IMG/VR virus record: IMGVR_UViG_648028025_000010
Length of the DNA stretch: 64,000 bases
Reading direction: 5' to 3' (one strand)
DNA from: a virus
Lineage: Duplodnaviria > Heunggongvirae > Uroviricota > Caudoviricetes
How positions within the stretch are numbered: the first letter of the stretch is position 1; each line of letters opens with the position of its first letter. The notes below the pieces were generated by a model that saw only the letters and a program-made list of their open reading frames with translations, was not told the DNA's origin and searched no databases. Positions 35,430 through 36,771 of this stretch are shown here, in pieces. The position numbers were made by a program, and so were the translations under genes.

Positions 35430-35468
35430 GCGTTGAAAATAAAAACAAAAACCCGCCGAAGCGGGTTA
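35430..35468 (-). terminator. Strong rho-independent terminator downstream of hokD
   Basis: Stem aacccgc-ttcg-gcgggtt with a UUCG-type loop, followed by TTTTTGTTTTT on the minus strand. Confidence 0.7.
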
Positions 35469-35535
35469 AGTGCGGGTGCGTTGAGGATGCCTGCCACATC
35501 AGAGGTGGCGAGGGATTTCTCCCCCGCCGGGTCTC

Positions 35536-35691
35536 TTACTCCTCAGGTTCGTAAGCTGTGAAGACAGCGACCTCCGTCTGGCCGGTTCGGATTCGTACCT
35601 CGCAGAGGTCTTTCCTCGTTACCAGTGCCGTCACTATGACGGTTAAACAGATGACGATCAGGGCGATTAACATCGCCTTTTGCTGCTTCAT
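35536..35691 (-). CDS. hokD: Hok-family small membrane toxin HokD (RelF), 51 aa
   Basis: Hand translation MKQQKAMLIALIVICLTVIVTALVTRKDLCEVRIRTGQTEVAVFTAYEPEE. Not in the ORF track (below 60 aa). Confidence 0.85.
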   Translation of the reverse strand: MKQQKAMLIALIVICLTVIVTALVTRKDLCEVRIRTGQTEVAVFTAYEPEE

Positions 35692-35762
35692 AGCCTGCTT
35701 CTCCTGTCAACGCAAAGCAGAAGTGTCACCTTCGGTGCGAAACAGAGATGTCATGCTTTGGT

Positions 35763-36050
35763 TCAGAGAATGCGTTTGACCGCCTCGCTATATACTTCCG
35801 AGCGTTCTCTTTTCCCAACAGAAATCACGAAAACGACAACTTTCTCGTCTATAACCTGGTATACAAGGCGATAGCCTGAAGACCGGAGCTTAATCTTGTA
35901 ACAATCAGGCATACCACGGAGCTTGTTTGCTTCAATCCGGGGTGACTCAAGTACTTCAACCAGCTTCTTTTTCAACTGTTCACGTACCGTCGAGCCCAGC
36001 TTTCGCCATTCCTTTAGTGCCCGCTCGTCAAAATCCAGAAAATACGCCAT
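35763..36050 (-). CDS. relE: RelE mRNA interferase toxin
   Basis: 95 aa MAYFLDFDERALKEWRKL... Start overlaps the relB stop. Confidence 0.9.
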   Translation of the reverse strand: MAYFLDFDERALKEWRKLGSTVREQLKKKLVEVLESPRIEANKLRGMPDCYKIKLRSSGYRLVYQVIDEKVVVFVISVGKRERSEVYSEAVKRIL

Positions 36051-36289
36051 CAGAGTTCATCCAGCGTCACACGTACTGGCTTAGGATTACGAAGCCGTTC
36101 TTTCACTATCTCCACAAGTTCAGCATCTTCATCACTCAGGAGTGTCTGTTTGAACGGCAAGCGTTCATTGTCAGCGATATACTCGAGCATGAGACGAAGC
36201 GCTTCAGAAGGAGTTACACCCATTTTTTCAAGCGCGGCGTAAGAACGCGCTTTAAGTTCATCGTCAATACGCAGGTTAATGCTACCCAT
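36050..36289 (-). CDS. relB: RelB antitoxin
   Basis: 79 aa MGSINLRIDDELKARSYAALEKMGVTPSEALRLMLEY... (RHH fold). Confidence 0.9.
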   Translation of the reverse strand: MGSINLRIDDELKARSYAALEKMGVTPSEALRLMLEYIADNERLPFKQTLLSDEDAELVEIVKERLRNPKPVRVTLDEL

Positions 36290-36300
36290 GTCTTACACCT

Positions 36301-36326
36301 CTTGTAATTACAAATGTCATTACAAG
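36301..36326 (-). promoter_or_regulatory. relBE operator/promoter region (relO-like inverted repeats)
   Basis: cttgtaattacaaatgtcattacaag: repeated TTGTAAT/ATTACAA half-sites immediately upstream of relB. Confidence 0.6.
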
Positions 36327-36771
36327 TATCGCACTACAACATGCTTAGGGCAAGTCACGAAGGAAGTCAGAAAGTAGTCGTAAGAACGGTGATCACTGTC
36401 CGCTTTGTGCCAGGAGCAGCCATTGCTAAGTCCATCCTGTATTGTGCAGGTCAGCTCGTTTTTAAAGAGTCCGGCCATCATCTTACTGGTACAGACACCA
36501 TATACTTTGTGACGGTCAGGCTACATATGCACAACTCAACTTATTCATCTATTTTTTGCTTTAGCATGTCAGTGTTGCTTTCTCGTCGGCGGGTGAGCGG
36601 TGACCTGACCTGTCGATAAAGGAACGTAGCACGTTTTATGCAACACCCGCATGCGGCAGAAAATTATTGCCGAACGTTTACCCCTGTCAACAAGCTTTAC
36701 TTTCTGAGGCGCGCCAGCCCGCGAGGAAAACAATCTGAACATCAAACAATTAATGACACAAGAAATACGAT

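What the first reader, a model, noticed from the sequence alone, without database searches (positions are those of the whole stretch)
35430..36330. relB-relE-hokD three-gene toxin-antitoxin cluster with operator repeats and a strong terminator
RelB and RelE are intact with a 1-nt start/stop overlap. A 51-aa Hok-family toxin ORF (missed by the 60-aa ORF cutoff) follows 71 nt downstream. relO-like repeats (TTGTAATTACAA / TGTCATTACAAG) lie upstream, and a GC-rich UUCG hairpin with a U-tract terminates the operon. No obvious sok-type antisense promoter was seen in the 71-nt relE-hokD spacer, suggesting hokD is expressed only as part of the relBE transcript.
Basis: partly seen in the sequence, partly recalled or inferred. 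Interest (0 to 1): 0.4.

Follow-up and report, generated by a model that had tools for sequence, protein, structure and literature searches.

The report
relBE transposon inserted into hok gene
This is the textbook E. coli relB-relE-hokD (relBEF) toxin-antitoxin operon, and comparison with related genomes shows it arose when a 3.3-kb mobile element carrying relBE jumped into the ribosome-binding site of a prophage hok toxin gene, which is why hokD has lost its usual antisense-RNA control.

Summary
relB (36050-36289), relE (35763-36050) and hokD (35536-35691) lie on the minus strand. They have the ATGA overlap, the 71-nt spacer, the relO repeats and a UUCG terminator. The stretch is 100% identical to E. 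coli K-12 MG1655, so the operon itself is already known (relBEF, Qin prophage). Published northern blots show one PrelBE-dependent relBEF transcript.

The less ordinary part is why the hok 5' half is missing. Homology to intact prophage hok/sok/mok loci starts exactly at the hokD Shine-Dalgarno. relBE is the right arm of a 3301-bp element (35705-39005). It has an intact IS1202-family (ISNCY) transposase, 19/26 TGT...ACA inverted repeats and a perfect 15-bp target duplication (GGAGAAGCAGGCTAT) spanning the hok SD to the AT of the ATG. In 667 E. coli genomes the complete hok leader still sits just outside the left end.

The same ends and relBE arm bound 2.6-7.3-kb elements in other Enterobacteriaceae, and the same elements are found on plasmids. 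These have different 13-16-bp duplications, mostly in the SD/start region of other hok-family genes, always after a GCA(A) motif. I found no report of this in the searchable literature.

The parts
35440..35467 (-). Intrinsic terminator (AACCCGC-UUCG-GCGGGUU plus U-run). It is the native hok mRNA terminator and now ends the relB-relE-hokD transcript.
   Evidence: It is conserved with the mEp460 and Rac-like hok loci.
35468..35535 (-). hokD 3' UTR, including the fbi-like element CCUCAACGCACCC that pairs with the 5' tac element in intact hok mRNAs.
   Evidence: Alignment A1 and fold. The tac/fbi assignment rests on my knowledge of the hok family plus complementarity to the GGGUGCUUGAGG of the intact leaders.
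35536..35691 (-). hokD (relF), a 51-aa Hok/Gef membrane toxin.
   Evidence: Pfam HOK_GEF 1.2e-23. Identical to K-12 HokD.
35690..35704 (-). Right copy of the 15-bp target-site duplication GGAGAAGCAGGCTAT (16 bp if the ambiguous A at 35705 is counted). It supplies hokD's SD and the AT of its ATG.
   Evidence: Perfect direct repeat D13. Junction analysis.
35705..35730 (-). Right inverted repeat (IRR) of the transposon, ...GGTGACACTTCTGCTTTGCGTTGACA-3'. It makes up most of the relE-hokD 'spacer'.
   Evidence: It matches IRL at 19/26 positions and is the single best match in the 64-kb window. It is identical at the ends of elements in other genera and resembles the IRR of a simple Hahella relative.
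35763..36050 (-). relE, a ribosome-dependent mRNA interferase toxin.
36050..36289 (-). relB, antitoxin and autorepressor.
36301..36353 (-). relO operator repeats (36301-36326) and the PrelBE -10/-35 hexamers (GATACT 36330-36325, TTGCCC 36353-36348).
   Evidence: Read from the sequence. RelBE binding at this promoter was shown by Sort-Seq and affinity purification (bioRxiv 10.1101/239335).
35705..36417 (-). Conserved 713-bp right arm of the transposon (promoter/operator, relB, relE, IRR).
   Evidence: 90-99% identical in elements that carry different cargo.
36314..37154 (+). Cargo specific to the E. coli-type element: the ydfV ORF (36314-36619) and flxA (36822-37154).
   Evidence: This cargo is replaced by other genes in related elements.
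37591..38931 (-). Intact 446-aa IS1202-family (ISNCY; RefSeq name 'ISEsa1 family') transposase. K-12 ydfW is its C-terminal remnant.
   Evidence: NCBIfam NF033594, 1.2e-139. RefSeq annotation. K-12 deletion mapped.
38980..39005 (-). Left inverted repeat (IRL), 5'-TGTTAACACCAAGCTGTAATGTCCCC, with a subterminal repeat at 38956-38974.
   Evidence: (D10).
39006..39020 (-). Left copy of the 15-bp target-site duplication.
39021..39034 (-). Last 14 nt of the displaced hok 5' leader (GTGCCGGAAGGCAA). The rest is deleted in this window and the remnant is fused to a DUF977 gene.
   Evidence: (alignment A2).

Best explanation
**What it is.** The cluster is the E. coli relBEF operon of a Qin-type lambdoid prophage. 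The window comes from a non-K-12 strain and is identical to K-12 across relB-relE-hokD.

**How it arose.** The prophage originally carried a complete type I hok/sok/mok locus between its replication genes and rem. A 3301-bp IS1202-family transposon inserted into the translation-initiation region of that hok gene. Its layout is IRL, transposase, flxA, ydfV, PrelBE/relO, relB, relE, IRR. The insertion duplicated 15 bp that run from the Shine-Dalgarno to the AT of the ATG.

**Consequences for hokD.** The right-hand copy of the duplication leaves hokD with an intact SD and start codon. The hok promoter, tac/ucb elements, Sok target, mok start and sok gene were pushed 3.3 kb upstream. In this window they were then deleted down to 14 nt. 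In K-12 a larger deletion also removed the left IS end.

**How it works now.** hokD has no promoter or antisense regulator of its own. It is transcribed only by read-through from the RelB2-RelE-autoregulated relBE promoter, across the terminator-less transposon end. Transcription stops at the native hok terminator.

**The element elsewhere.** The element is one of a family with a constant transposase arm and a constant relBE arm that reads outward. The family inserts preferentially, and always in the same orientation, immediately after a GCA(A) motif in the conserved leader of hok-family genes.

**Shown versus inferred.**
- Shown here: gene identities, breakpoint, inverted repeats, duplication, displaced leader, independent insertions.
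- Shown by others: co-transcription.
- Inferred: that the transposase chooses the target, and whether HokD is translated from this mRNA.
For: **Identity.** 100% match to MG1655 relB/relE/hokD. Pfam and PDB matches.

**Breakpoint.** In every row listed from the two searches (102 phage and 5059 E. coli records matched in all), hok loci that lack relE begin to match at window 35705, the first base of AGGAGA.

**Transposon features.**
- ISNCY transposase, 1.2e-139.
- IRL/IRR 19/26 with TGT...ACA tips. The IRR is the best IRL match among about 128,000 positions in the window and lies exactly at the repeat.
- Perfect 15/16-bp direct repeat, 3316 bp apart.

**Filled and empty sites.** In KSC1031 and EC590 the complete hok leader ends ...AAGGCA(A/C)GGAGAAGCAGGCTAT|TGTTAAC. 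This leader-IRL junction is present in 667 of 5426 complete E. coli genomes. mEp460 shows the uninterrupted site with otherwise 94.7-99.5% identical flanks.

**Family properties.**
- A simple 1449-bp Hahella relative has 8 copies, each with a different 15-16-bp duplication.
- IS1202-family papers report TGT/ACA ends, 24-26-bp imperfect inverted repeats and a subgroup with 15-17-bp duplications (PMC10132070; bioRxiv 2022.12.17.520857).

**Mobility of the whole unit.**
- Identical IRL and IRR bound 2.6-7.3-kb elements in Enterobacter, Citrobacter, Kluyvera, Leclercia, Pantoea and others. relBE always sits 58 nt from the IRR end.
- The very same 3301-bp element sits in pndA on a Salmonella IncI plasmid and in hok on an Enterobacter IncF plasmid, with different duplications.

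**Targeting.** Among 31 distinct right junctions, 14 run straight into a Hok ORF (at least 7 different Hok proteins). Five more are hok SDs already occupied by another IS. The two non-hok sites whose left flanks are known also have GGCA(A/T) just before the duplication.

**Expression.** One relBEF transcript, dependent on PrelBEF (PMC3598666).
Against: - No transposition experiment exists for this element.
- Harmer and Hall list ISEsa1 as 1609 bp with no detectable duplication and no target. Either the ISfinder entry is a different element or its right end was placed at the end of the conserved left arm. I could not obtain that sequence to check.
- hok leaders are homologous to one another. 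Part of the 'GCAA' motif recurrence is therefore shared ancestry of targets rather than independent evidence of recognition.
- About 10 of the 31 junction types are not hok.
- Enrichment in hok could partly reflect selection or tolerance of such insertions, or sampling of plasmid leading regions.
- Some duplications are 13-14 bp and one locus (L022) is ambiguous.
- Whether HokD protein is made from relBEF mRNA is unknown. The predicted SD occlusion is only a fold prediction.
Confidence: 0.82

Rival explanations
1. relBE and hokD were joined by a non-transpositional rearrangement, such as illegitimate recombination or deletion. This is the unspecified 'major genetic rearrangement' of the hok literature. 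On this view the nearby transposase is an unrelated neighbour.
For: The literature only speaks of a genomic rearrangement (PMC12214031; PMC7232551). In K-12 no left end or duplication is visible. The IRL/IRR match is imperfect at 19/26.
Against: - A perfect 15-bp duplication lies exactly at both ends.
- The complete displaced leader abuts IRL in 667 genomes.
- The same IRL and IRR bound elements with different duplications at unrelated sites and on plasmids.
- A relative shows 15-16-bp duplications in 8 copies.
Confidence: 0.04
2. hokD keeps an independent, so far unrecognised promoter and/or a cis-antisense regulator, so it is still a self-contained type I toxin-antitoxin system.
For: - In the PrelBEF deletion strain a weak transcript was still seen with relE and relF probes.
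- The IRR ends in a perfect outward-facing TTGACA (35710-35705).
- The 3' part of the mRNA accumulates after toxin-induced cleavage.
Against: - No -10 lies at a suitable distance from that TTGACA, and any start would fall at or after the hokD ATG.
- No promoter-like site on either strand.
- No Sok-family match.
- The Sok target and sok promoter of intact relatives lie entirely upstream of the breakpoint.
- The residual transcript was attributed by its authors to a promoter created by the deletion.
Confidence: 0.06
3. The element is a transposon, but its concentration in hok start regions reflects selection, ascertainment or homologous exchange between hok loci. On this view the transposase does not choose the target.
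For: - hok loci are abundant on the plasmids and prophages that dominate the databases.
- Insertions that uncouple a toxin from its promoter are harmless.
- About 10 of 31 junction types are non-hok.
- hok leaders share ancestry, so the motif is not independent among them.
Against: - The insertion point is the same to within a few nucleotides, directly after GCA(A) in most cases and displaced by 1-2 nt in L014 and L025. The orientation is the same in at least 7 different hok genes.
- The duplications differ in sequence and length (13-16 bp), which homologous exchange cannot produce.
- The two non-hok sites with known left flanks also carry GGCA(A/T) at that position.
- The element still landed at the GGCAA when the hok SD was already disrupted by another IS.
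- Hahella copies show CAA before the duplication in 5 of 8 cases.
- Other IS1202-family members are known site-specific elements that target dif.
Confidence: 0.2

Closest known systems
E. coli K-12 relBEF operon (relB-relE-hokD/relF) of the Qin prophage. Sources: Bech et al. 1985 and Gerdes et al. 1986, as cited in PMC3598666, and RefSeq annotation.
   Same: The DNA is identical over 35300-36450. Genes, overlap, operator, spacer and terminator are the same.
   Different: The window's strain still has the full transposase, IRL, the left duplication copy and a 14-nt leader remnant (37776-40612). K-12 has lost these by deletion, which is why the origin cannot be seen in K-12.
hok/sok/mok type I toxin-antitoxin loci: plasmid R1 parB, phage 933W hokW/sokW/mokW, and the mEp460 and Rac-like prophage hok loci.
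   Same: Same Hok toxin family. The SD, ORF, 3' UTR with fbi-like element and terminator are 93-99.5% identical to the prophage loci.
   Different: The promoter, tac/ucb, Sok target, mok start and sok gene are missing. Transcription comes from a type II toxin-antitoxin promoter instead.
IS1202 family insertion sequences (ISNCY): the ISTde1-type subgroup with 15-17-bp target duplications, and ISEsa1.
   Same: Transposase model NF033594. TGT...ACA tips. Imperfect inverted repeats of about 26 bp with subterminal repeats. Duplications of 15-16 bp.
   Different: This element carries a constant relBE arm plus variable cargo (3.3-7.3 kb, against about 1.5 kb for a simple IS). It inserts mostly in hok start regions. 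ISEsa1 is listed as 1609 bp with no duplication and no target, and that length equals the conserved left arm here.
ISAjo2/ISAba32-group IS1202-family elements that insert 5 bp from the XerC side of dif/pdif sites.
   Same: Same IS family. Insertion is orientation-specific and next to a short conserved DNA site.
   Different: The target is different (hok leader GCAA/SD rather than dif) and the duplication is longer (15 versus 5 bp). Those papers found no target for the subgroups with long duplications or none.
Toxin-antitoxin modules carried inside transposons, for example Tn3-family transposons with TA pairs next to the transposition genes (from my own knowledge, not checked here).
   Same: A type II TA pair is a constant part of a transposon rather than casual cargo.
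   Different: The transposon family is different. Here the TA operon has no terminator and reads out of the element into a captured type I toxin gene.

Membership tests
RelBE type II toxin-antitoxin system | RelB-family ribbon-helix-helix antitoxin encoded upstream of the toxin and overlapping it | tested here: met
   Pfam RelB 1e-32. Full-length match to PDB 4FXE_A. 1-nt TGATG overlap.
RelBE type II toxin-antitoxin system | RelE/ParE-fold mRNA interferase toxin | tested here: met
   Pfam ParE_toxin 2.2e-13. Full-length matches (residues 1-95) to RelE chains 4FXE_D and 4V7J/4V7K, and the DNA is identical to K-12 relE. K52, K54, R61, R81 and Y87 are present by reading; their catalytic roles are from memory.
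RelBE type II toxin-antitoxin system | Autoregulation through operator repeats that overlap the promoter (relO) | tested here: met
   CTTGTAATGACATTTGTAATTACAAG at 36301-36326, next to the -10 hexamer. RelBE binding to this promoter is published. Binding itself was not tested here.
hok/sok/mok type I toxin-antitoxin system | Hok/Gef-family small membrane toxin | tested here: met
   Pfam HOK_GEF 1.2e-23. Toxic on overexpression according to bioRxiv 2025.08.07.668861.
hok/sok/mok type I toxin-antitoxin system | Overlapping mok reading frame that starts upstream of hok | tested here: not met
   The mok frame has a stop 27 nt upstream of the hokD ATG (TGA at 35718-35716) and only a TTG after it. 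The mok starts of relatives lie upstream of the breakpoint.
hok/sok/mok type I toxin-antitoxin system | cis-encoded Sok antisense RNA with its promoter and target | tested here: not met
   No Rfam hit. No promoter-like site. The leader is absent from the whole window except 29 nt.
hok/sok/mok type I toxin-antitoxin system | 5' tac/ucb elements that pair with the 3' fbi/dcb elements | tested here: not met
   The 3' UTR with CCUCAACGCACCC is kept, but the 5' partner GGGUGCUUGAGG of intact relatives is gone. A possible substitute pairing by the IRR is no better than shuffled controls.
IS1202-family transposable element | DDE transposase of the ISNCY/IS1202 type | tested here: met
   NF033594, 1.2e-139, 465 bits against a cutoff of 250. 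RefSeq calls it 'IS1202-like element ISEsa1 family transposase'.
IS1202-family transposable element | Imperfect 24-26-bp terminal inverted repeats with 5'-TGT...ACA-3' tips | tested here: met
   19/26 match, TGTTAAC.../...GTTGACA. Criteria from PMC10132070.
IS1202-family transposable element | Target-site duplication of subgroup-typical length flanking the whole element, different at independent sites | tested here: met
   15 bp here. 13-16 bp at 10 or more other sites. 15-16 bp in 8 Hahella copies.
IS1202-family transposable element | Demonstrated transposition activity | not testable with these tools
   There is only comparative evidence: the same 3301-bp element at 99.8% identity in the chromosome, in an IncI pndA locus and in an IncF hok locus.

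The most novel reading that the evidence does not exclude
The classical E. coli relBE module is the fixed, outward-reading right arm of a previously undescribed IS1202-family transposon. This element homes, in one orientation, to a GCA(A) motif in the leader of hok-family type I toxin genes. Its 15-bp duplication regenerates the hok SD and start, so each insertion strips hok of Sok/Mok control and puts it under the relBE promoter. hokD/relF is simply the most widespread such event. The ISfinder entry ISEsa1 (1609 bp, no duplication) may be the mis-delimited left arm of this element.
Probability: 0.55. Interest if true: 0.65.

Novelty: new variant of a known kind. Interest (0 to 1): 0.45.

Why it matters
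Taken at face value the finding is ordinary. It is the annotated relBEF operon of K-12, known since the 1980s, and the absence of sok/mok at hokD has been noted since 1999.

The value added is the cause of that absence.

- It turns an unexplained 'rearrangement' into a defined event, with a filled site, an empty site and a displaced leader.
- It shows that a paradigm type II toxin-antitoxin system travels as an integral part of a transposon.
- It gives the IS1202 subgroup with long duplications or none its first candidate target site.
- It suggests a testable interaction between mobile elements: a type II TA transposon that captures type I toxins on plasmids and prophages.
- It bears on how relBE/hokD deletion strains and relBE distribution surveys should be interpreted, because relBE presence tracks a mobile element.

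Tried and rejected
1. **Rfam search for Sok or a hok leader.** I used a permissive search on 34000-38000 and a gathering-threshold search on the whole window. Nothing turned up except a sub-threshold isrK-like hit on the hokD 3' UTR (25 bits against 50).

2. **A canonical right inverted repeat at the end of the roughly 1.6-kb transposase arm.** This would have made relBE mere neighbouring DNA. No IRR-like sequence exists there; the best match is 13-16 of 26 with no ACA tip.

3. **The transposon end acting as a tac mimic.** The idea was that GCGUUGACAGGA pairs with the hok 3' fbi element to keep hok silent. The pairing appears in the MFE fold of the hokD RNA. However, RNAduplex energies for 7 different hok targets are no better than shuffled controls (fraction of shuffles at least as good 0.06-0.84). 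Rejected as unsupported.

4. **Spread among hok loci by homologous recombination.** Rejected because duplications differ in sequence and length between loci yet are identical within each locus.

5. **The original papers.** Bech 1985, Gerdes 1986 and Pedersen & Gerdes 1999 are not held in the library. Their content is cited second-hand or from memory.

6. **Locus L022.** It has two abutting IS1202-like elements and only a 10-bp repeat, and could not be resolved.
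Full report
**1. Observation**

All three genes lie on the minus strand.

| Feature | Coordinates | Evidence |
|---|---|---|
| relB | 36050-36289 (79 aa) | |
| relE | 35763-36050 (95 aa) | |
| hokD | 35536-35691 (51 aa) | |
| relE-hokD spacer | 35692-35762 (71 nt) | |

- The relB stop and the relE start share one base (TGATG).
- Pfam gives RelB 1e-32, ParE_toxin 2.2e-13 and HOK_GEF 1.2e-23.
- RelE and RelB match the E. coli RelBE crystal and ribosome-complex chains over their full length (4FXE, 4V7J/K).
- The operator CTTGTAATGACATTTGTAATTACAAG is at 36301-36326. 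By my reading it sits next to a TTGCCC-N17-GATACT promoter.
- The terminator AACCCGC-UUCG-GCGGGUU plus a U-run is at 35467-35440.
- The stretch 35300-36450 is 100% identical to E. coli K-12 MG1655, where it is annotated relB, relE and hokD between ydfV/flxA and rem in the Qin prophage.

The operon as such is already known.

**2.

Four lines of evidence agree that hokD has no regulator of its own.

- Rfam finds no Sok or hok-leader RNA. The only hit is a sub-threshold isrK-like match to the hokD 3' UTR.
- The promoter scan finds nothing on either strand of the spacer.
- The mok reading frame is closed by a stop and has no ATG.
- Kasari et al. 2013 (PMC3598666) detected one full-length transcript with relB, relE and relF probes. 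After toxin-induced cleavage the relF part became the most abundant fragment. In a strain lacking PrelBEF, relBEF mRNA was no longer induced and its 3' part no longer accumulated. The authors took this as showing that those fragments do not start at toxin-inducible promoters inside the operon. A weak, RelE-independent transcript that they still saw was attributed to a promoter created by the deletion.

So 'hokD is expressed only as part of the relBE transcript' is supported. HokD is toxic on overexpression, and its mRNA is A-to-I edited at a low level in K-12.

**3. Why the hok 5' half is missing**

*The breakpoint.* I searched the relE-3'/hokD/rem-upstream segment against phages and against 5426 complete E. 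coli genomes. In every listed hit that lacks relE, the match begins at exactly query position 96. That is window 35705, the first base of the hokD Shine-Dalgarno AGGAGA.

*Intact relatives.* Phage 933W has annotated hokW, mokW and sokW. mEp460 and a Rac-like prophage are similar. All carry a conserved leader of about 200 nt upstream of that point. Downstream, mEp460 is collinear with the window through rem and ydfU. The hok gene is therefore native to this type of prophage, and something replaced its 5' half.

*The window is not K-12.* It has 37776-40612 extra. That segment holds three things:
- an intact 446-aa ISNCY/IS1202-family transposase (37591-38931; NCBIfam NF033594, 1.2e-139; RefSeq name 'IS1202-like element ISEsa1 family');
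- an IS end, TGTTAACACCAAGCTGTAATGTCCCC, at 39005-38980;
- directly outside that end, a 29-nt piece of the hok leader ending ...GGCAAGGAGAAGCAGGCTAT.

*The duplication and the inverted repeats.*
- The sequence (A)GGAGAAGCAGGCTAT occurs as a perfect direct repeat at 39006-39021 and 35690-35705 (D13).
- The 26 nt just inside the right copy (35705-35730) match the left end in inverted orientation at 19 of 26 positions, with TGT...ACA tips.
- This is the single best match to the left end among all positions of both strands of the 64-kb window.
- Imperfect 24-26-bp inverted repeats, TGT/ACA tips and, for one subgroup, 15-17-bp duplications are the published hallmarks of the IS1202 family.

**4. Filled and empty sites**

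- In strains KSC1031 and EC590 the complete hok leader lies immediately outside the left end and stops at ...GCTAT|TGTTAAC. It is identical to that of mEp460 in the conserved leader region, the last ~220 nt before the junction; upstream of that the sequences differ slightly.
- This leader-IRL junction is present in 667 of 5426 complete E. coli genomes.
- The relE-hokD junction is present in 1132 genomes.
- At least 80% of the IS region is present in 785 genomes.
- mEp460 and many E. coli prophages show the uninterrupted site with a single copy of the 15 bp.

The history is therefore as follows:
1. A 3301-bp element inserted into the hok SD/ATG with a 15-bp duplication.
2. The displaced leader was lost in the lineage of this window (14 nt remain, fused to a DUF977 gene).
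3. A larger deletion in K-12 removed the leader, the left IS end and most of the transposase. It left ydfW as the transposase's C-terminal remnant.

**5. The unit moves as a whole and carries relBE as a constant arm**

I used the transposase to fetch loci from one genome per species. Exact copies of the same IRL and IRR bound elements of 2575-7320 bp in Enterobacter, Citrobacter, Kluyvera, Pseudocitrobacter, Huaxiibacter, Superficieibacter, Leclercia, Pantoea and Shigella.

All of them share:
- a left arm of about 1610 bp (IRL plus transposase);
- a right arm of about 713 bp (PrelBE/relO, relB, relE and 58 nt ending in the IRR).

The middle varies. It can be flxA plus ydfV, a cation-diffusion-facilitator transporter with a membrane protein, LysR regulators with transporters, or secondary IS insertions. 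There is no IRR-like sequence at the end of the left arm and no terminator between relE and the IRR.

Each element is flanked by its own 13-16-bp duplication.

Plasmid examples:
- The very same 3301-bp flxA-ydfV version (99.8% identical) sits in pndA on a Salmonella IncI plasmid, with duplication TGGAGGGGCTATGAT.
- It also sits in hok on an Enterobacter IncF plasmid, with duplication GGAGAAGAAGGCCA.
- A 4155-bp version sits in the same hok type on a Citrobacter plasmid, with a 16-bp duplication.

A simple 1449-bp relative in Hahella (62% identical transposase) has eight copies. Each has a different 15-16-bp duplication, and the right end reads ...GGGTTGACA.

**6. Target preference**

I pooled genome, plasmid, viral-contig and metagenome loci, giving 170 IRR-bearing stretches with 31 distinct right flanks.

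| Right-flank class | Count |
|---|---|
| Run straight into a Hok-family ORF | 14 |
| hok SDs already occupied by another IS | 5 |
| Deletion into hokD | 1 |
| Not hok | about 10 |

- The 14 Hok flanks cover at least seven different proteins: HokD; a PndA-like protein; three MKLP(R/P)... plasmid Hok types; MKMPNQ/MKLPNQ; a hokE-like protein; and a hokC-like protein.
- Wherever the left flank is known, the duplication starts directly after, or within 1-2 nt of, (G/T)GCA(A), and relBE points into hok.
- The two non-hok sites with known left flanks read TGGCAA| and AGGCAT|.
- Five of the eight Hahella copies have CAA|.

The duplications differ between loci in both sequence and length but are identical within each locus. 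That excludes spread by homologous exchange between hok loci.

I infer sequence-directed, orientation-specific targeting of the hok leader. A contribution from selection or sampling cannot be excluded computationally.

**7. How the operon works now**

- RelB2-RelE represses PrelBE at relO. This is established for K-12; binding at this promoter is documented.
- Transcripts run through relB and relE, then the terminator-less transposon end and the duplicated SD into hokD. They stop at the hok terminator, which is conserved with intact hok loci.
- The folded 3' part typical of hok mRNAs is retained (fold z = -3.3). That fits its accumulation as a stable fragment.
- Whether HokD is translated is open. 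The MFE fold sequesters the SD. The attractive idea that the transposon end mimics the lost tac element did not survive a shuffle control across seven hok targets.

**8. Comparison with what is known, and novelty**

- The literature I could search describes hokD only as inactivated 'by genomic rearrangements'.
- The two IS1202-family surveys list ISEsa1 as 1609 bp with no duplication and no target. They mention neither relBE cargo nor hok.
- Searches combining relE/hokD/ydfW/flxA with IS1202/ISNCY, or hok with transposon terms, found nothing relevant. That library lacks most subscription journals, so prior description cannot be excluded.
- 1609 bp equals the conserved left arm here. The ISfinder entry may therefore be mis-delimited. 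This is speculation and was not tested.

I rate the locus itself as already known. I rate the transposon as a new variant of a known kind: an IS1202-family element with a fixed relBE arm, variable cargo and hok targeting.

**9. Verdict**

- As stated, the finding is ordinary.
- The mechanism behind it is well supported by comparative evidence but lacks experimental proof. It is moderately interesting to toxin-antitoxin and transposon specialists.

Noticed in passing
window 37776-40612: This segment is absent from K-12 MG1655. K-12 ydfW is the C-terminal remnant of the 446-aa IS1202-family transposase, and the K-12 ydfX pseudogene marks the other side of the deletion. The window therefore comes from a non-K-12 E. 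coli; strain E2865 was 100% identical over both stretches compared (35300-36450 and 37300-39060).
   Followed up: partly
window 35705-35710 (minus strand): The transposon's right end finishes with a perfect outward-facing -35 hexamer, TTGACA. The Hahella relative has it too. No suitable -10 follows here, but at other insertion sites it could create hybrid promoters.
   Followed up: no
window 35551-35553 (hokD codon 47, TAC in the context CUUACGAA): This is the Tyr-to-Cys A-to-I (TadA) mRNA editing position reported for hokC, hokD and hokE. hokD is reported as about 6% edited in K-12 (PMC12214031).
   Followed up: partly
window 35446-35527 (minus strand): A sub-threshold Rfam hit of the hokD 3' UTR to the Salmonella sRNA isrK (25 bits against a gathering score of 50, E = 0.016). 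It is probably just a shared pair of hairpins plus a terminator.
   Followed up: no
window 38965-39384 (minus strand): A DUF977/LygF-like ORF reads through the 29-nt hok-leader remnant into the IS left end. The deletion junction shares 8 nt of microhomology with the hok leader (GTGCCGGA).
   Followed up: partly
window 36314-36619 (plus strand): The ydfV ORF starts inside the relO operator. Only its first 39 or so codons belong to the conserved transposon right arm, and the rest is replaced in other elements. The annotated ydfV may therefore not be a real gene.
   Followed up: partly
L022:2600-7650; metagenome loci L168, L173, L174, L166, L211, L227: The hok SD region is hit repeatedly. In Leclercia a second, related IS1202-like element abuts the relBE transposon at the same hok SD. 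In several metagenome contigs another IS end (TGTATGGGTCCACC...) sits in the SD that the relBE element then used.
   Followed up: partly
L005:4290-4530, L006:4290-4530 (strains KSC1031 and EC590; 667 E. coli genomes): The displaced hok leader, with its hok promoter, sok gene and mok start, is intact and now reads into the transposase gene. Sok RNA may still be made there without a target, and the hok promoter could drive transposase expression.
   Followed up: no
window 42774-42825; 28845-29230 and 31740-32132; 3777-3975: Rfam gathering-level hits elsewhere in the window: the DicF sRNA, two cspA-type thermoregulator leaders (in K-12 the cspB/cspF genes lie in the corresponding part of Qin), and IS009. 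These fit a Qin-like prophage.
   Followed up: no
L026-L036 (Hahella sp. SMD15-11): A simple 1449-bp relative of the element is present in at least 10 copies in one genome, and the 8 copies examined each have a clean 15-16-bp duplication. It would be a convenient reference for this IS1202 subgroup.
   Followed up: partly
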